From: an uncultured Clostridia bacterium
GTDB taxonomy: Bacteria; UBA6262; WVXT01
DNA length: 64,000 nt
Assembly: GCA_964403285.1 (NCBI GenBank)
Contig: CAYOFG010000004.1
Coordinates: forward strand, 17,292 to 81,291
Direction of reading: 5' to 3'
Shown here: positions 34,799-39,052 of the stretch, piece after piece
Position numbering within the stretch: the stretch's first letter is position 1
How the letters are laid out: the number at the start of each line of letters is the position of its first letter
Made by a program: the position numbers and the translations under genes
The notes under the pieces: generated by a model
Database searches by the model: none
What the model saw: only the letters and a program-made list of their open reading frames with translations
What the model was told of the DNA's origin: nothing

Positions 34799-36976
34799 AT
34801 GTCTAAGATTGTGGCAGCAGCAGCTATCAGGGGCGCGCATAAAGTGATAAAAGAGGCAGAAGAATTTTTAAATAAAGCGATCAAGGAGAAAGGGAAAGAC
34901 CAGAAAGTTGAATTTCCTGAGACCGCTTACTTCCTTCCCATGGCTTATGCCCTTTTGGGGGCCGAGGTAAAGACTGTAGGAGACATGGTACCTGTACTTG
35001 AGGAAGCGAAGTCACTTTTGAGAGAGGAGCCGAGCGAGTCTCTCTGGCTTCCCTATCTCGGCGATGCGCTCGATTCCGGCATAGCTACCCTTTTAGGAGA
35101 AGAGATTATTGTCGCCCTAAGATACCTGTATGGCAAAGAACCCCAACCAGATTGTGTTGGTTTCTACACCGATACCTGGATGAGAAGTTACGGGATACAA
35201 CTGGTAGATGGCAGGATGCCCGGTTTTGCTGCCATATTGGGTGCGGCTCCGGATAGCAAAACCGCAGTAGAGATAGTCAGGGAACTTCAGAAAAGAAATA
35301 TAATATGTTTTGTTGGCTCCAATCATAATGGCAGGAGCATAATTGACCAACTCAAAGAAGAGAATGTCCAGATGGGTTGGGAGACGTATATAGTTCCTTA
35401 CGGACGCGATACCATAACTGGAATCTATCCACTCAACTGGGCTATCAGATCGGCTCTGACCTTTGGTGGCCTCAAAAAGGGAGAGGCAGTGAAGTGTCTC
35501 AAATACTGCCAGAATAGAGTATTCGCCTTTGGTTTGGCTTTGGGCGAGTTGGATGATGTGAAGTATGCTACCGGTGCAGGAGCTATTAACATGGGCTTTC
35601 CTGTAATTGCCGATACCGATATTCCTGAGATAAGGCCCAGTGGTATCTGCACCTATGAACATTTAGTGAAGGAACTTGATCATAAGAAGTTAGTTCCTAC
35701 CTGTATCCAGGTGCGTGGCGTTAAGGTTAGGGTAACGGAAATTCCCATTCCCGTTGCCTATTCTGCTGCTTTTGAGGGAGAGACAGTAAGAAAAGAGCAG
35801 ATGTATGTCCAGTTTGGAGGAAAATATTCGACTGCTTTTGAGTATGTCACCACAAGAGATTTGGACGACGTGGAAGATGGAAAGATAGAAGTAATTGGAC
35901 CGGAAGTGGACAAAGCTGAAGAGGGTGGGGCAATGCCTTTAGGGATATATGTCGAAGTAGCTGGCAGAAAGATGCAGAAGGATTTTGAGCCCATATTAGA
36001 ACGGCAGATTCATACTTTTTTGAACGAGGCTATGGGGATATTCCATATGGGTCAGAGAGACCTTAACTGGTTAAGGATTAGTAAAGATGCGAAGAAGAAA
36101 GGCTTCAAGATTCGCCATTTTGGAGTGATTATTCACGCTCGCCTTCACGATACCTTCGGGGCAATAGTGGATAAAGCTCAGGTTACAATTTATACTCGAC
36201 AGGAGGATGTGGAGAAATATCGTTCAGAAGCCAAGAAGGCTTATGAGGAACGCGATGAACGCATAGGAGGAATGACCGACGAGAGCGTCGATACTTTCTA
36301 CTCTTGCACGCTATGTCAATCGTTTGCGCCGAATCATGTATGTATAGTTAAACCAGAAAGATTAGGGTTATGTGGCGCTTATACTTGGCTGGATGCTCGC
36401 GCTTGTTTTGAGTTGAATCCCACAGGACCAAATCAGCCGGTGAAGAAAGGAGAATTTATTGACTCATTAAGGGGTGAGTGGAAGGGAGTGAATGATTTCA
36501 TCTATCAAAAATCTAACAAGACCTTAGAACGCTTCCACGGTTATTCCATAATAAGTTGCCCAGAGACCTCATGTGGGTGCTTCGAGTGTATAATTGCTAT
36601 ACTTCCCGAGACGAATGGCTTTATGATTGTAAATAGGGAATTTGCTGGTATGACTCCCATAGGGATGACTTTCAGCACCTTGGCTGGCTCTGTGGGTGGA
36701 GGAGCACAGACCCCGGGCTTTATGGGCATTGGAAGACTGTATATCGTTAGTAAGAAGTTTATCTCTGCTGATGGAGGGATAAAACGCATAGTCTGGATGA
36801 CAAAAGAGTTAAAAGAAGCACTGGGGGATAAATTTAAGAAAAGGTGCGAAGAAGAAGGAATTCCTGAGCTGATAGATAAGATTGCTGATGAGACAGTCGC
36901 CACCACCACAGAGGAACTTCTCTCGTATTTGCAGAAAGTGAAGCACCCGGCTTTAGACATGGAACCATTGATATGA
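34799..36976 (+). CDS. acsB: Acetyl-CoA synthase, bacterial type
   Basis: 725 aa; FPETAYFLP, SCTLCQSFAPNHVC and PETSCGCFEC A-cluster ligands. Confidence 0.97.
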   Translation: MSKIVAAAAIRGAHKVIKEAEEFLNKAIKEKGKDQKVEFPETAYFLPMAYALLGAEVKTVGDMVPVLEEAKSLLREEPSESLWLPYLGDALDSGIATLLGEEIIVALRYLYGKEPQPDCVGFYTDTWMRSYGIQLVDGRMPGFAAILGAAPDSKTAVEIVRELQKRNIICFVGSNHNGRSIIDQLKEENVQMGWETYIVPYGRDTITGIYPLNWAIRSALTFGGLKKGEAVKCLKYCQNRVFAFGLALGELDDVKYATGAGAINMGFPVIADTDIPEIRPSGICTYEHLVKELDHKKLVPTCIQVRGVKVRVTEIPIPVAYSAAFEGETVRKEQMYVQFGGKYSTAFEYVTTRDLDDVEDGKIEVIGPEVDKAEEGGAMPLGIYVEVAGRKMQKDFEPILERQIHTFLNEAMGIFHMGQRDLNWLRISKDAKKKGFKIRHFGVIIHARLHDTFGAIVDKAQVTIYTRQEDVEKYRSEAKKAYEERDERIGGMTDESVDTFYSCTLCQSFAPNHVCIVKPERLGLCGAYTWLDARACFELNPTGPNQPVKKGEFIDSLRGEWKGVNDFIYQKSNKTLERFHGYSIISCPETSCGCFECIIAILPETNGFMIVNREFAGMTPIGMTFSTLAGSVGGGAQTPGFMGIGRLYIVSKKFISADGGIKRIVWMTKELKEALGDKFKKRCEEEGIPELIDKIADETVATTTEELLSYLQKVKHPALDMEPLI

Positions 36977-36982
36977 ATTGAG

Positions 36983-37170
36983 AAAGGAGGGTCGCTGTTC
37001 CGACGGATAAGGAGGAACGTGTCAGCGACGCCTGCGAGTCGGTGAGCAGGCAGGTCACCGACTGAAGCGAAGCGAAAGGGTCGTCGTCGCGACGAGTAAG
37101 GAGCGACAAGTCTGGCGACGGGTTCGAGATGGTGAGAACCCCGGCCGGATTGAGCGAAGCGAAAGGAGGT
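36983..37170 (+). ncRNA. Candidate tandem structured RNA/ssDNA motif (two ~88-nt units)
   Basis: Two units with conserved loops GACGnnTAAGGA and GAGnnGGTGA closed by covarying stems, each ending in AGCGAAGCGAAAGG. Function unknown. Confidence 0.55.
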
Positions 37171-37179
37171 GAGTAAGTT

Positions 37180-37593
37180 ATGGCTAAGGCGAACAAAGTC
37201 AATCATTTAATTGTGGAGACTCCCGACAAAGTAGGCATGATGGCAAAGGTCTGCTCGGCAATTTCAGATGCAGGGGTAAACATTAGAGCGATCTCTGCGA
37301 GTGCCAGAGCACGGAAGGGACATTTTATGCTTCTCACAGAGAACAATCCTAAAGCAAAGGAGGCTCTTAAAGCTGCTGGTTTTAAAGTCAAAGAGGAGGA
37401 GGCTGTAGCCGTTGAGCTGGAGAACGAGGTCGGGGCAGCAAAAAAGTTGGCTAAGAAGCTGGCAGATGCCAAAGTGAATCTAAGATATTGTTATGGTTCT
37501 ACTGGTAATGGCACGATGGCACTCCTGGTCTTTAATTCAAGCGACAACGAGAAAGCAATAAGGACCCTCGGTATTATGGGAGTGGGGGAATAA
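37180..37593 (+). CDS. Tandem ACT-domain protein
   Basis: Two ACT-like halves (TPDKVGMMAKVC..AGVNI; NEVGAAKKLA...VNLRYCY); SD AGGAGGTGA. Confidence 0.85.
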   Translation: MAKANKVNHLIVETPDKVGMMAKVCSAISDAGVNIRAISASARARKGHFMLLTENNPKAKEALKAAGFKVKEEEAVAVELENEVGAAKKLAKKLADAKVNLRYCYGSTGNGTMALLVFNSSDNEKAIRTLGIMGVGE

Positions 37594-37631
37594 TCCGATT
37601 TCGGTAACGGAAACAGAAGAAGCTCTGGAAT

Positions 37632-37690
37632 GTAGGGGCGACACTCTGTGGTCGCCCAAAGAGAGGGACGGCACAGAGTCCGTCCCCTAC
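37632..37690. repeat. GTAG-type REP doublet (family C)
   Basis: GTAGGGGCGAC..GTCGCCC...GGGACGGCACAGAGTCCGTCCCCTAC; 3' arm identical to that at 47332-47359. Confidence 0.85.
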
Positions 37691-37714
37691 AGCTACAAAT
37701 GGTTGGAGGAGATT

Positions 37715-39052
37715 ATGGCTTTAACGGGTCTGGAGATTTATAAGCATTTGCCAAAGACAAATTGTAAGAAGTGTGGCTTTCCCACTTGTTTAGCATTTGC
37801 TATGGCTCTGGCGGGAAAGAAGACTTCGCTGGATAAGTGTCCCGATATTACAGAAGAGGCGAAGCTTGCCCTGGAATCTGCTTCTCAACCTCCTATGGCA
37901 ACAATTACTATTGGCGTAGGAGAAGATAAAGTAGAGGTTGGCGGCGAGACAGTTCTCTTCCGGCACGAGAAGACTTTCTACCACCCTTGCGCTATTGGCA
38001 TCACTTTGAGTGACTCTCTGGAGAAGGAAAAAATCCTCCGGCGAATTGAAAAAATCAGTAAGTTAAAATTCGAAAGGGTGGGTATGTTTCTGCAAGTGAA
38101 TCTCATTGCCATTTCTAACGACAGCAATAGTCAGGATAAGTTCTGCGATGCAATAAGAGGTGCGACGGAAAAATCTAATTTACCATTGGTTTTAATCTCC
38201 AATAACCCACAAGTTTTAGAGGCTGGTTTGAAAATATGTGCTGAAAGAAAACCATTAATTTATTCGGCTAAGGAAGATAATCAAGAAGCCATGGTAGGTT
38301 TAGCCAAGAAATATTCCTGCCCCCTGGCAGTTTATGGGAAGAATTTAGAAGAGTTAGATTCCCTTTCCCAGAAGGTGGTTGCCTCGGGAGTAAAAGATGT
38401 TGTCCTTGATCCTGGAACGAGAAATCTGGGTGGCTCTGTTCAGGATTTTACTCAGCTCAGGAGATTAGCTTTAAAGAGAGGTTATCGACCATTCGGTTAT
38501 CCGGTAATTGCCTTTGTCAGAGGCAATGACCCTTACCAGGAAGTTTCTATGGCAGCCACTTATATTTCCAAGTATGCTAACATAGTGGTGCTTGATAGAA
38601 CTGAGCCGGAGGAGATTCTCCCTCTGATTACTCTGAGGCAGAATATATATACCGATCCTCAGAAGCCGATAATGGTCGAACCCAAACTTTATGAAATCGG
38701 CACACCGAACGAAAATTCTCCACTATTGGTAACTACAAACTTTTCTCTTACATTTTTTACGGTTCAGCCGGAGATTGAGGCAAGCAAGGTTCCCTCTTAT
38801 TTATTAATCGTTGAAGCTGAAGGTCTCTCTGTGCTTACCGCTTGGGCTGCTGAGAAGTTTACACCTGAGGGAATTTTTGCGGCAATGAAGAAGGCAGAGG
38901 TAGAGAAGAAGCTATCTCATAAAAAAATAATTATTCCTGGCTATGTAGCTGTAATGAAGGCAAAATTGGAAGATGAAAGTGGCTGGGAAGTTCTGGTAGG
39001 TCCGAAAGAGGGTTCGGGAATTCCCAAATATCTGAAAGAGACATGGAAATAG
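37715..39052 (+). CDS. acsC: Corrinoid Fe-S protein large subunit (probable start 37715)
   Basis: LPKTNCKKCGFPTCLAFA, LRQNIYTDPQKP, VTTNFSLT and VLTAWAA motifs. Confidence 0.96.
   Translation: MALTGLEIYKHLPKTNCKKCGFPTCLAFAMALAGKKTSLDKCPDITEEAKLALESASQPPMATITIGVGEDKVEVGGETVLFRHEKTFYHPCAIGITLSDSLEKEKILRRIEKISKLKFERVGMFLQVNLIAISNDSNSQDKFCDAIRGATEKSNLPLVLISNNPQVLEAGLKICAERKPLIYSAKEDNQEAMVGLAKKYSCPLAVYGKNLEELDSLSQKVVASGVKDVVLDPGTRNLGGSVQDFTQLRRLALKRGYRPFGYPVIAFVRGNDPYQEVSMAATYISKYANIVVLDRTEPEEILPLITLRQNIYTDPQKPIMVEPKLYEIGTPNENSPLLVTTNFSLTFFTVQPEIEASKVPSYLLIVEAEGLSVLTAWAAEKFTPEGIFAAMKKAEVEKKLSHKKIIIPGYVAVMKAKLEDESGWEVLVGPKEGSGIPKYLKETWK

What the first reader, a model, noticed from the sequence alone, without database searches (positions are those of the whole stretch)
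36983..37170. Tandem two-hairpin motif with covarying stems and conserved loops between acsB and the ACT gene
Seen: two ~88-nt GC-rich units. Each has (a) an outer 6-bp stem GTCGCT/AGCGAC versus GTCGTC/GGCGAC with a 3' bulge; (b) an inner 5-bp stem GTTCC/GGAAC versus GTCGC/GCGAC closing a 12-nt loop GACG-nn-TAAGGA (37002-37013; 37091-37102); (c) a 6-bp stem GCCTGC/GCAGGC versus GGGTTC/GAACCC closing a 10-nt loop GAG-nn-GGTGA (37036-37045; 37126-37135); (d) an identical AGCGAAGCGAAAGG tail (37066-37079; 37153-37166), the second running into the SD of the ACT gene. In unit 1 the second loop can alternatively pair with TCACCGACT downstream, a possible switch or pseudoknot. Both loops display SD-like or GGA sequences. 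I recognise no known family. Inference: a tandem aptamer or protein-binding leader controlling ACT-acsC-acsV-acsF-acsD-acsE; alternatively another repeat family.
Basis: partly seen in the sequence, partly recalled or inferred. Interest (0 to 1): 0.8.

Follow-up and report, generated by a model that had tools for sequence, protein, structure and literature searches.

The report
Mobile hairpin repeats, not a riboswitch
The two GC-rich hairpin units between acsB and the ACT gene are real and well structured, but they are two copies of a small repeat that sits in the ribosome-binding sites of dozens of unrelated genes and is present or absent between near-identical strains. They are therefore not a dedicated switch for the acetyl-CoA-synthase operon.

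Summary
Window 36991-37079 (unit A) and 37080-37166 (unit B) each form a bipartite hairpin with loop GACGRRUAAGGA, then a 6-bp hairpin with loop GAGNNGGUGA, then an identical AGCGAAGCGAAAGG tail.

The regulatory reading is not supported:
- Orthologous acsB-ACT spacers are empty (22-26 nt) in three lineages. One empty strain has an ACT protein identical to strains carrying A+B.
- Other orthologous spacers hold different, hybrid or multi-unit arrays.
- The B tail alone reached the metagenome scan's 120-stretch limit. The 114 arrays found hold 1-4 units, nearly always in sense orientation. In 83 of them the tail GAAAGGAGG lies 5-10 nt before a start codon, upstream of at least 25 unrelated gene families.
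- The core two-hairpin module occurs in at least 113 genome stretches: Nitrospirota, delta-proteobacterial lineages, Planctomycetota, Omnitrophota, Elusimicrobiota and others.
- Its loops are invariant among the hits of a search pattern that itself specified them. Its stems, which the pattern left free, covary strongly.
- In Nitrospirota and delta-proteobacterial MAGs it is an optional insert inside terminal-inverted-repeat MITEs.
- There is no Rfam match, no linked protein gene, and no hit in the viral or plasmid collections.

Best reading: a previously uncatalogued small mobile or recombining structured repeat that lands in Shine-Dalgarno sites and regenerates the Shine-Dalgarno sequence. 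How it moves, and what recognises the loops, remain unknown.

The parts
34799..36976 (+). acsB (acetyl-CoA synthase subunit), the gene upstream of the repeat
   Evidence: Pfam ACS_CODH_B_C 4.6e-123, CdhC 1.1e-64, CODH_A_N
36980..36990 (+). Left junction GAGAAAGGAGG. This SD-like sequence corresponds to the single SD of empty alleles.
   Evidence: Empty allele L015 reads GAAAAAGGAGG|TGAGTAAGTTATG; filled allele L011 reads GAAAAAGGAGG[A+B]TGAGTAAGTTATG. Left flanks at 49 distinct metagenome junctions all end in G; most end in RAGG, and 12 begin with a unit type that has a different outer stem.
36991..37079 (+). Unit A (89 nt): bipartite hairpin 1 (36991-37029, loop 37002-37013), hairpin 2 (37030-37051, loop 37036-37045), and tail AGGTCACCGACTGAAGCGAAGCGAAAGG (37052-37079)
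   Evidence: Covariance-model hit 36988-37055, 74.4 bits, E 2.5e-15. Minimum-free-energy fold equals the described structure. The same subtype lies upstream of other genes (L028, L092, L116).
37080..37166 (+). Unit B (87 nt): hairpin 1 (37080-37119, loop 37091-37102), hairpin 2 (37120-37141, loop 37126-37135), and tail CGGCCGGATTGAGCGAAGCGAAAGG (37142-37166)
   Evidence: Covariance-model hit 37077-37145, 78.7 bits, E 2.6e-16. The B tail alone reached the 120-stretch limit of the metagenome scan, with tandem arrays of period 87.
37161..37172 (+). Shine-Dalgarno sequence of the ACT gene, GAAAGGAGGTGA. Its 5' half is the end of unit B.
   Evidence: Read. 7 nt lie between GAAAGGAGGTGA (ends 37172) and the ATG at 37180. 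In 83 arrays elsewhere the same tail is followed by a start codon 5-10 nt after the SD match.
37180..37593 (+). ACT-domain protein gene downstream of the repeat
   Evidence: Pfam ACT 1e-13, ACT_8. 102 homologues, all in the acsB-ACT-acsC context where contigs allow it to be seen.

Best explanation
Window 36991-37166 holds two different subfamily copies (A and B) of a small (about 65-90 nt), non-coding, strongly structured dispersed repeat.

Shown:
- The two copies lie head to tail exactly in the ribosome-binding site of the ACT gene.
- Each unit ends in ...GCGAAAGG(AGG). The insertion therefore regenerates the SD at normal spacing from the start codon, and the downstream gene stays translatable.
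- The array is a strain-variable passenger of the acs operon transcript, not a sensor dedicated to that operon.
- The units are members of a family with invariant loops and covarying stems.
- The family is scattered over unrelated genes and at least eight phylum-level lineages.
- Units are present or absent at homologous positions, both here and inside MITEs of Nitrospirota.
- In the window's lineage the arrays are in sense orientation and embedded in the SD.

Inferred, how it spreads: units or whole arrays are copied from one SD to another. This would use either the short AAAGG/AAGGAG homology that brackets them (template switching or short-homology recombination) or an unidentified site-specific enzyme acting on the folded hairpins. 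Array length then changes by slippage.

Inferred, what it does here: as part of the mRNA it adds about 180 nt of stable hairpins and extra SD-like sequence between acsB and ACT. That could protect flanking RNA from exonucleases or attract 30S subunits. Any such effect is dispensable, because empty alleles exist.
For: (1) Orthologous site polymorphism:
- empty spacers in L005 (22 nt), L015 (23 nt) and L133-136 (26 nt)
- A+B in L011-14, which have the same ACT protein as the empty L015
- a different hairpin element in L001-4
- a hybrid joined at AAGGAG in L006/7
- a 483-nt multi-unit array in L008/9
- a variant B unit in L141-143
- unrelated repeats in L137-140
.

(2) Between the window and L011 the A+B spacer is 98.0% identical. 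acsB is 87.9%, ACT 81.4%, and the next spacer 40%. The repeat is therefore younger than, or homogenised relative to, its flanks.

(3) Dispersal:
- The metagenome scan with the B tail hit its limit at 120 stretches, giving 207 modules in 114 arrays of 1-4 units.
- 96 of 103 arrays are followed by a sense ORF.
- At least 25 unrelated downstream gene families were seen.
- Array size varies at orthologous genes.
.

(4) Left flanks at 49 distinct junctions all end in G, most in RAGG.

(5) In Nitrospirota MITEs with the same terminal inverted repeats, the module is present (L020, L030), absent (L132, L049) or at another position (L021, L056).

(6) No recurrent neighbouring protein among 154 flanking ORFs.

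(7) No Rfam family. No consensus promoter or terminator in the spacer.
Against: - The loop sequences were specified by the search pattern, so their constancy among the hits shows only that this form is abundant. The stems, left free by the pattern, take at least 27 and 22 different forms. Some selected interaction is likely, and it has not been identified. A host-beneficial RNA function in this lineage is therefore not excluded.
- Strict sense orientation and precise SD placement could reflect selection for a useful leader rather than insertion specificity.
- 98% identity between diverged strains could also be read as purifying selection.
- No transposase, target duplication or excision product was found, so mobility is inferred only from presence/absence patterns.
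- All data are MAG and metagenome contigs. Copy number per genome and strand bias relative to replication could not be measured.
Confidence: 0.78

Rival explanations
1. Operon-specific tandem riboswitch or protein-binding leader. The two units would sense a metabolite (THF, cobalamin, metal, amino acid) or bind the ACT protein or CsrA, and so control translation of ACT-acsC-acsV-acsF-acsD-acsE.
For: - Real covarying structure with conserved loops.
- Position immediately 5' of the ACT SD.
- A GGA-containing loop.
- An alternative pairing in unit A.
Against: - Absent from three orthologous lineages, and from a strain with an identical ACT protein.
- The same units precede at least 25 unrelated gene families.
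- The core module lies in both orientations relative to genes inside MITEs of other phyla.
- The alternative pairing is not kept by compensatory change.
- No Rfam match.
Confidence: 0.03
2. Host-useful portable leader. In this lineage the arrays would be kept because they improve expression of the gene downstream. Possible routes are SD-like sequences that hold 30S subunits and block 5' exonucleases (as in STAB-SD of cry3A), 5' hairpins that stabilise the processed mRNA, or insulation of the downstream SD from upstream structure. Copy number (1-4) would tune the effect.
For: - 96 of 103 arrays are sense and directly before an ORF.
- 83 arrays have the tail SD 5-10 nt from the start codon.
- Each unit ends in GAAAGG(AGG), the STAB-SD-type sequence (PMC12970973, citing Agaisse and Lereclus 1996).
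- Loop 1 contains UAAGGAG and loop 2 contains GGUGA. In order, these read as the extended SD UAAGGAGGUGA.
- Units are more conserved than the flanking genes.
Against: - Empty alleles with identical flanking proteins exist.
- No gene-class bias.
- In high-GC phyla the same module shows no orientation bias relative to genes: 35 same against 32 opposite upstream, 28 against 42 downstream.
- If the loop ends form tandem G.A pairs, as the GAT...ATC variants suggest, most of the SD-like bases are not single-stranded.
- No expression data.
Confidence: 0.2
3. Mechanistic rival for mobility: a REP- or IS200/IS605-like single-strand element. A Y1 (HUH) transposase encoded elsewhere would recognise the folded hairpins and a 5' RRGG head, and insert the unit 3' of an AAGG-type target without target duplication.
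For: - Architecture: a head tetranucleotide (GAGG/GGGG/AGGG) abutting a bulged GC-rich hairpin.
- No terminal inverted repeats and no fixed-length duplication.
- Clean presence/absence inside MITEs.
- Head-to-tail arrays are expected if the unit's end recreates the target.
- A Y1_Tnp gene (Pfam 4.2e-11) lies about 60 nt upstream of a 4-unit array in L176.
Against: - The L176 Y1 gene is flanked on both sides by a different palindrome, GGTACTCGGGGTCGTCCCTGACCCCGAG. That is the more likely cognate.
- Only 2 Y1-like genes were found in 252 loci, about 1.6 Mb.
- Whole composite arrays (the same A+B pair) occur at different loci (L116 and the window). Hybrid units break at AAGGAG (L006, L043). Both fit homology-driven copying better.
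- The loops are 10-12 nt and conserved, unlike REP loops of 2-5 nt (PMC6006769).
Confidence: 0.2

Closest known systems
REP / BIME / REPIN elements (RAYT-associated repetitive extragenic palindromes)
   Same: Short, GC-rich, hairpin-forming intergenic repeats. They are often inside operons, form mosaic clusters, have stems that vary between families, carry a short conserved head next to the hairpin foot, and are strain-variable.
   Different: - The head is RRGG, not GTAG/GTGG.
- The loops are 10-12 nt and constant in every hit of a loop-anchored search spanning many phyla, not 2-5 nt.
- Units are direct tandem repeats, not inverted doublets.
- Position is 5' of genes, inside the SD, not mostly 3' of genes.
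- No flanked RAYT gene was identified (PMC6006769, PMC3733652).
BOX elements of Streptococcus pneumoniae (boxA-boxB(n)-boxC)
   Same: Modular composite repeats with a variable number of tandem internal modules. Length differs between strains. They are transcribed with neighbouring genes and are predicted to fold (PMC3049150).
   Different: - BOX has terminal inverted repeats and target duplications, and is confined to streptococci.
- The present module has neither in this lineage.
- The present module spans many phyla and is embedded in the SD.
MIRUs (mycobacterial interspersed repetitive units; from my own knowledge of Supply et al. 1997, not checked here)
   Same: 40-100-nt direct tandem repeats in intergenic regions of operons. 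They share the orientation of the flanking genes, vary in copy number, and carry translation signals that adjoin the flanking genes.
   Different: - MIRUs are thought to work through small ORFs overlapping the neighbours' stop and start codons.
- Here the start codon is in frame with the open frame of unit B in only 20 of 70 cases, about chance (after correcting the register).
- MIRUs lack the conserved two-hairpin structure.
Bacterial MITEs (Correia, RUP, Nezha, Chunjie)
   Same: Small non-coding mobile repeats that can sit in operons without destroying them. In Nitrospirota and delta-proteobacterial MAGs the module rides inside true terminal-inverted-repeat MITEs.
   Different: - The window's units have no terminal inverted repeats.
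- The module is an optional insert in the MITEs, not their defining part.
- Chunjie is A+T-rich with 9-bp direct repeats (PMC3184786).
STAB-SD (SD-like mRNA stabiliser of B. thuringiensis cry3A)
   Same: A GAAAGGAGG-type sequence in an untranslated leader that is not used for initiation. It is proposed to bind 30S and protect the mRNA (PMC12970973).
   Different: STAB-SD is a single short motif at one gene family, not a mobile structured repeat. Whether the present internal tails or loops bind 30S is untested.

Membership tests
Riboswitch / dedicated cis-regulatory leader | Conserved at orthologous positions upstream of the regulated genes | tested here: not met
   Of 8 ACT-protein clusters sampled, 3 contain empty spacers, 2 hold other repeats, and the rest hold variable arrays. 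L015 (empty) and L011-14 (A+B) encode the identical ACT protein.
Riboswitch / dedicated cis-regulatory leader | Association with one functional class of genes | tested here: not met
   At least 25 unrelated downstream gene families in 120 metagenome stretches. No recurrent neighbour among 154 ORFs at genome loci.
Riboswitch / dedicated cis-regulatory leader | Match to a curated RNA family | tested here: not met
   Rfam 15 gives no hit at gathering score in the window. No relevant hit at E<=10 on the region or on relatives.
Riboswitch / dedicated cis-regulatory leader | Ligand- or protein-dependent structural switch | not testable with these tools
   Needs in-line probing or binding assays. The only alternative pairing, in unit A, lacks compensatory support.
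REP/REPIN (RAYT-mobilised) | GTAG or GTGG head 0-2 nt 5' of the hairpin | tested here: not met
   The head is GAGG, GGGG, AGGG or GAGA. Definition taken from PMC6006769.
REP/REPIN (RAYT-mobilised) | Short or bulged GC-rich hairpin with a 2-5 nt loop, usually as inverted doublets | tested here: not met
   A bulged GC-rich hairpin is present, but the loops are 12 and 10 nt. Units are direct tandem repeats of period 87-89.
REP/REPIN (RAYT-mobilised) | A cognate RAYT gene flanked by the same repeats | tested here: inconclusive
   One Y1_Tnp gene lies next to a 4-unit array (L176), but it is flanked on both sides by a different palindrome. Whole genomes could not be searched.
MITE | Terminal inverted repeats | tested here: not met
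   There are none at the ends of units A or B. In Nitrospirota and delta-proteobacterial MAGs the terminal inverted repeats belong to a carrier element that also exists without the module.
MITE | Fixed-length target-site duplication | tested here: not met
   The flanking direct repeat is the SD itself. Its length varies from 3 to 8 nt: AAG, AAAGG, GAAAGG, AAAGGAGG.
Dispersed small structured repeat (generic class: REP/BOX/MIRU-like) | Many copies at unrelated loci, non-coding, with presence/absence and copy-number polymorphism between strains | tested here: met

The most novel reading that the evidence does not exclude
The two-hairpin core would be a previously undescribed, phylum-spanning mobile module of about 70 nt. 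Its two stems each end in C-G plus tandem G.A pairs, capped by loops GRRUAA and NNGG. On this reading the invariant loops are the recognition site of a conserved trans-acting partner, either an unknown single-strand transposase or recombinase or the 30S subunit itself. The module targets SD-like AAGG sequences. In one uncultured low-GC lineage it has become a self-spreading 'portable ribosome-binding site' that precedes a sizeable fraction of genes in arrays of variable length.
Probability: 0.3. Interest if true: 0.8.

Novelty: new variant of a known kind. Interest (0 to 1): 0.55.

Why it matters
For this window: the acs operon should not be annotated with a riboswitch, and the spacer is a strain marker rather than a regulator.

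More broadly, the core module combines properties not usually seen together in bacterial repeats:
- the same loop sequences recur in Nitrospirota, delta-proteobacterial lineages, Planctomycetota, Omnitrophota, Elusimicrobiota and others
- the stems are under heavy compensatory change
- it nests inside MITEs
- in one lineage it is exclusively inserted in sense orientation inside Shine-Dalgarno sites, and it restores them

If a recognising factor exists, it would define a new way for selfish DNA to colonise operons without polar effects. It would also give a natural set of 0-4-unit leader alleles for studying how 5' structure and extra SD sequences affect translation and mRNA decay. The covariance model built here could be used to mask these repeats in searches for genuine regulatory RNAs in metagenomes.

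Tried and rejected
- Rfam at gathering score and at E<=10, on the window region and on Nitrospirota and delta-proteobacterial copies: nothing relevant.
- Literature search by loop sequence and by topic: no description found. The Chunjie MITE and CGTC-tagged REPs were considered and rejected on sequence and structure.
- Viral contigs: 0 hits. Plasmid collection: no blastn match for the window spacer or for a delta-proteobacterial MITE.
- Linked protein: 154 neighbouring ORFs show no recurrent family. tblastn with Y1 transposase sequences recalled from memory gave 2 hits in 1.6 Mb. The one next to an array has a different cognate palindrome.
- tRNA intron idea: ARAGORN calls only intact tRNAs beside the modules. 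The interrupted tRNA-like pieces are partial duplicates.
- G.U against A.C mismatches in stems (16 against 9): too few to decide between RNA-level and DNA-level selection.
- Small-ORF or translational-coupling idea: unit B is 29 codons and open in one frame. But only 20 of 70 downstream start codons are in that frame, after correcting an off-by-one register. That is about chance.
- Per-position substitution analysis of B copies: confounded by mosaic units and not used.
- Consensus promoter and terminator scan of 36500-37800: none found.

Full report
**1. What is in the window**

The 203-nt spacer lies between acsB (34799-36976; Pfam ACS_CODH_B_C, CdhC) and a 137-aa ACT-domain gene (37180-37593). 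It holds two head-to-tail units: A at 36991-37079 and B at 37080-37166.

Each unit has:
- a bipartite hairpin, with an outer stem of 6 bp and an inner stem of 5 bp, separated by a 5-6-nt bulge on the 3' strand
- a 12-nt loop GACGRRTAAGGA on that hairpin
- an abutting 6-bp hairpin with a 10-nt loop GAGNNGGTGA
- a tail ending in AGCGAAGCGAAAGG

The tail is exact twice and occurs nowhere else in the window. The second tail runs into GAAAGGAGGTGA (37161-37172). This is the SD of the ACT gene, with 7 nt between it and the ATG.

The surrounding genes are a complete CODH/ACS cluster: CODH, ferredoxin, a pyridine-nucleotide oxidoreductase, AcsB, ACT, AcsC, RACo, a CooC-like ATPase, AcsD, a pterin-binding AcsE and a formate/nitrite transporter.

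**2. Is it more than chance?**

Folding alone is only suggestive. Each unit's minimum-free-energy fold is exactly the described structure, but the z-scores are -2.3 and -1.4. The whole spacer gives z -2.9.

The decisive evidence is comparative. 50 diverse relatives were aligned by MAFFT, without reference to structure.
- The inner stem is paired in 99.2% of cells and hairpin 2 in 98.7%.
- 15 of 17 pairs carry changes on both sides.
- The covariation score is 0.71, against 0.18 in column shuffles (0 of 500 reach it) and 0.07-0.16 when partners are slid. RNAalifold recovers the same two helices.
- Among 110 distinct cores there are 27 different inner-stem and 22 different hairpin-2 sequences.

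The loops were fixed by the search pattern, so their invariance is not independent evidence within this set. The stems were left free.

**3. It is not specific to this locus**

(a) The orthologous site. Contigs encoding seven homologous ACT proteins (73-96% identical to the window's) were fetched. Every contig long enough keeps the order acsB-ACT-acsC. The spacer differs:

| Loci | Spacer |
|---|---|
| L005 | empty, 22 nt |
| L015 | empty, 23 nt |
| L133-136 | empty, 26 nt |
| L011-14 | A+B; same ACT protein as the empty L015 |
| L001-4 | a different two-hairpin element, 106 nt |
| L006/7 | that element fused to the 3' part of B at the sequence AAGGAG; same ACT protein as the empty L005 |
| L008/9 | 483 nt holding at least three units plus an interruption |
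| L141-143 | a variant B whose first hairpin is replaced |
| L137-140 | unrelated repeats plus a remnant of the A tail |

(covariance-model occupancy.)

The empty allele reads GAAAAAGGAGG|TGAGTAAGTTATG. The filled allele reads GAAAAAGGAGG[A+B, ending ...GAAAGGAGG]TGAGTAAGTTATG. The array therefore sits in the SD, bracketed by SD sequence.

(b) Age. Between the window and L011 the spacer is 98.0% identical, while acsB is 87.9%, ACT is 81.4% and the next spacer 40%. Taken together with the empty alleles, this fits recent spread or homogenisation better than an ancient conserved leader.

(c) Other loci in the same lineage.
- nhmmer found 207 modules in 114 arrays there: 53 singles, 34 doubles, 22 triples and 5 quadruples, with period 87.
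- 96 of 103 arrays with enough sequence are followed by a sense ORF.
- In 83 arrays the tail SD is followed by a start codon 5-10 nt later.
- The downstream genes fall into at least 25 unrelated families. Examples include a MerR-like regulator, an eda-like aldolase, a sugar kinase, ribosomal protein S15, a FeoA-like protein and the ACT protein.
- Array size differs (1-4 units) at orthologous genes.
- Left flanks at 49 distinct junctions all end in G. Most end in RAGG; 12 begin with a unit type that has a different outer stem.

The same A+B pair precedes an eda-like gene in L116. Hybrid units occur, for example L043 with hairpin 1 of B and hairpin 2 of A.

**4. The core module is far more widespread**

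It returned 117 stretches, against about 16 expected for the whole collection under uniform base composition (my estimate). 113 of them have the stems.

The record titles are mostly MAGs:
- Nitrospirota
- 'delta proteobacteria', Syntrophaceae, Syntrophorhabdus and Thermodesulfobacteriota
- Planctomycetia
- Omnitrophota
- Elusimicrobia and Endomicrobia
- Firestonebacteria
- Ratteibacteria
- Gaiellales
- an alphaproteobacterial MAG
- low-GC 'Clostridia' or 'bacterium' MAGs carrying the window-type units

Other findings:
- Several genomes contribute several contigs.
- In Nitrospirota and delta-proteobacterial MAGs the module is an internal part of 110-350-bp MITEs. Their terminal inverted repeats are CAGG(A/C)TGCT(C/G)AAAAAG..., flanked by CTAG/TTAG-like sequences, and their interior is a mosaic of small hairpins.
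- MITEs with the same ends exist without the module (L132, L049). In others the module sits at a different internal position (L021, L056). The module is thus a unit of insertion or deletion in its own right.
- After filtering ORFs by codon-position GC, the high-GC lineages show no orientation bias relative to neighbouring genes, whereas the low-GC lineages are sense-biased.
- 154 neighbouring ORFs show no recurrent family.
- The module is absent from 2.9 million viral contigs and from the plasmid collection.
- A few copies lie 15-100 nt downstream of tRNA genes or between partial tRNA duplicates.
- One copy sits inside the start of an xseB-like ORF, with a duplication of about 30 nt of the gene start on either side (L085).

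**5. Anatomy of the conserved parts**

Both loops begin with GA and end with GA. A minority variant of hairpin 1 replaces GAC...GGA by GAT...ATC around the same GAATAA (5 distinct stems against 40). This replaces G.A, A.G and C-G by G-C, A-T and T-A.

This suggests that the 12-nt 'loop' is really a C-G-closed tandem G.A stack, plus one more pair, capped by a GRRUAA hexaloop. By analogy, hairpin 2 would be a tandem G.A stack plus G.U capped by NNGG. This is an inference from few examples.

Read linearly, loop 1 holds UAAGGAG and loop 2 holds GGUGA. Together and in order they spell the extended SD UAAGGAGGUGA. Three explanations are open and I could not decide between them: ribosome binding, the microhomology used for spreading, or a by-product of the GA-rich closing motifs.

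**6. How it most likely works**

Shown: the units are members of a dispersed, strain-variable repeat family. In this lineage they occupy SD sites in sense orientation and end with a sequence that restores the SD.

Inferred:
- Spread from SD to SD probably uses the AAAGG/AAGGAG sequence that brackets units and recurs in loop 1.
- This would account for the sense-only orientation, the variable 3-8-nt flanking repeat, the movement of whole composite arrays, the hybrid units and the deletion junction in L006.
- A dedicated single-strand (Y1/HUH-type) enzyme is the main mechanistic rival. It would better explain the recurrence of one loop form across phyla and the clean presence/absence inside MITEs.
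- One Y1 gene lies next to an array (L176), but it is flanked by a different palindrome.

At this locus the array is probably co-transcribed with the operon, since no consensus promoter or terminator was found. It may alter mRNA stability or ribosome loading, in the manner of REP or STAB-SD. It is dispensable, because empty alleles with identical proteins exist.

**7. Comparison with known systems, and novelty**

The element behaves like REP/BIME, BOX and MIRU elements, and it rides in MITEs. It fails the defining features of each:
- no GTAG/GTGG head and no short loops, as REP would have
- no terminal inverted repeats or fixed duplication, as a MITE or BOX would have
- no frame-linked small ORFs, as MIRU would have (corrected)

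It matches no Rfam family, and I found no description in the searchable literature. I therefore file it as a new variant of the known kind 'small dispersed structured repeat'. Its recognising factor and its mechanism of movement remain open.

**8. Limits**

- All comparative data are metagenome or MAG contigs.
- MAG labels may be imprecise.
- ORF calls in high-GC loci are heuristic.
- No expression or biochemical data exist.

Noticed in passing
window 37631-37691: A REPIN-like inverted pair lies between the ACT gene and acsC: TGTAGGGGCGACACTCTGTG / CACAGAGTCCGTCCCCTACA, 20-nt arms, 80% complementary. It consists of two GTAG-headed palindromes, GTAGGGGCGAC...GTCGCCC and its partner. Similar GTAGGGGCGACC hairpins occur in relatives (L028, L071, L096). 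There is only one exact head in the window.
   Followed up: partly
L008 1-2517, L009, and the P0010 contig: In some relatives acsB is interrupted by inteins. The predicted products are 1252-1802 aa, with Intein_splicing and LAGLIDADG_3 domains inside the ACS_CODH_B_C region. The window's AcsB (725 aa) has none.
   Followed up: no
L176 1-760: A Y1_Tnp (RAYT-like) gene (209-724; Pfam 4.2e-11) is flanked on both sides by GGTACTCGGGGTCGTCCCTGACCCCGAG palindromes. About four tandem 45-nt repeats (GGGACGAGCCCGACTACCGTCC...) lie upstream of it. The same palindrome lies just upstream of module arrays in L116 and L157.
   Followed up: partly
L020 5290-5500, L102 2420-2660, L132 118-256 and many other loci: A MITE family is shared by Nitrospirota and delta-proteobacterial MAGs. 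Its terminal inverted repeats are CAGG(A/C)TGCT(C/G)AAAAAG..., its flanks are CTAG/TTAG-like, and its interior is a mosaic of exchangeable small hairpins. No parent transposase was identified, and there was no plasmid match.
   Followed up: partly
L008 2531, L026, L042, L141 1390-1420: Hairpins of the form YCCCGAT-(GAATAA or other)-ATCGGGR replace hairpin 1 or hairpin 2 in some units. The GAT...ATC version looks like a Watson-Crick-substituted form of the GAC...GGA loop ends.
   Followed up: partly
L085 1980-2130: An Omnitrophota copy lies inside the first codons of an xseB-like gene. About 30 nt of the gene start (GGTTTrACATGGCTGAAATAAAATTTGAGG) are duplicated on both sides. The downstream copy keeps an intact gene.
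   Followed up: no
L048 45-330; L078 1800-2310; L081 4090-4318: Module copies lie beside tRNA genes and are embedded between partial duplicates of the tRNA. They follow CTTTCAAGG of a tRNA-Glu anticodon arm, or interrupt a T-arm-like piece of tRNA-Val. ARAGORN calls only the intact tRNA copies.
   Followed up: partly
window 37129-37176; L176 792-1178: Loop 2 of unit B contains an ATG. This opens a 15-codon frame that ends at TAA 37174-37176, 3 nt before the ACT start codon. Unit B is exactly 29 codons and open in this frame, so a 4-unit array gives a 128-aa repetitive ORF. There is no SD before the ATG and no frame preference relative to downstream genes.
   Followed up: partly
L152, L177, L185, L189, L208, L223, L246, L247, L254, L260: At about ten loci the array is followed not by a start codon but by a conserved stretch of about 60 nt, GAAACAGAATCAAGAGCAGACTCAGACATGCGCTGAGTC..., with the ORF starting about 90 nt later. 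This may be another conserved leader or a paralogous gene family.
   Followed up: no
L137-L140, acsB-ACT spacer: In one related lineage this spacer holds two copies of TTCGGGGGACACAATACTTAA, followed by CACTGACTGAAGAAAGGAGG. The latter looks like a solo remnant of the unit A tail.
   Followed up: no
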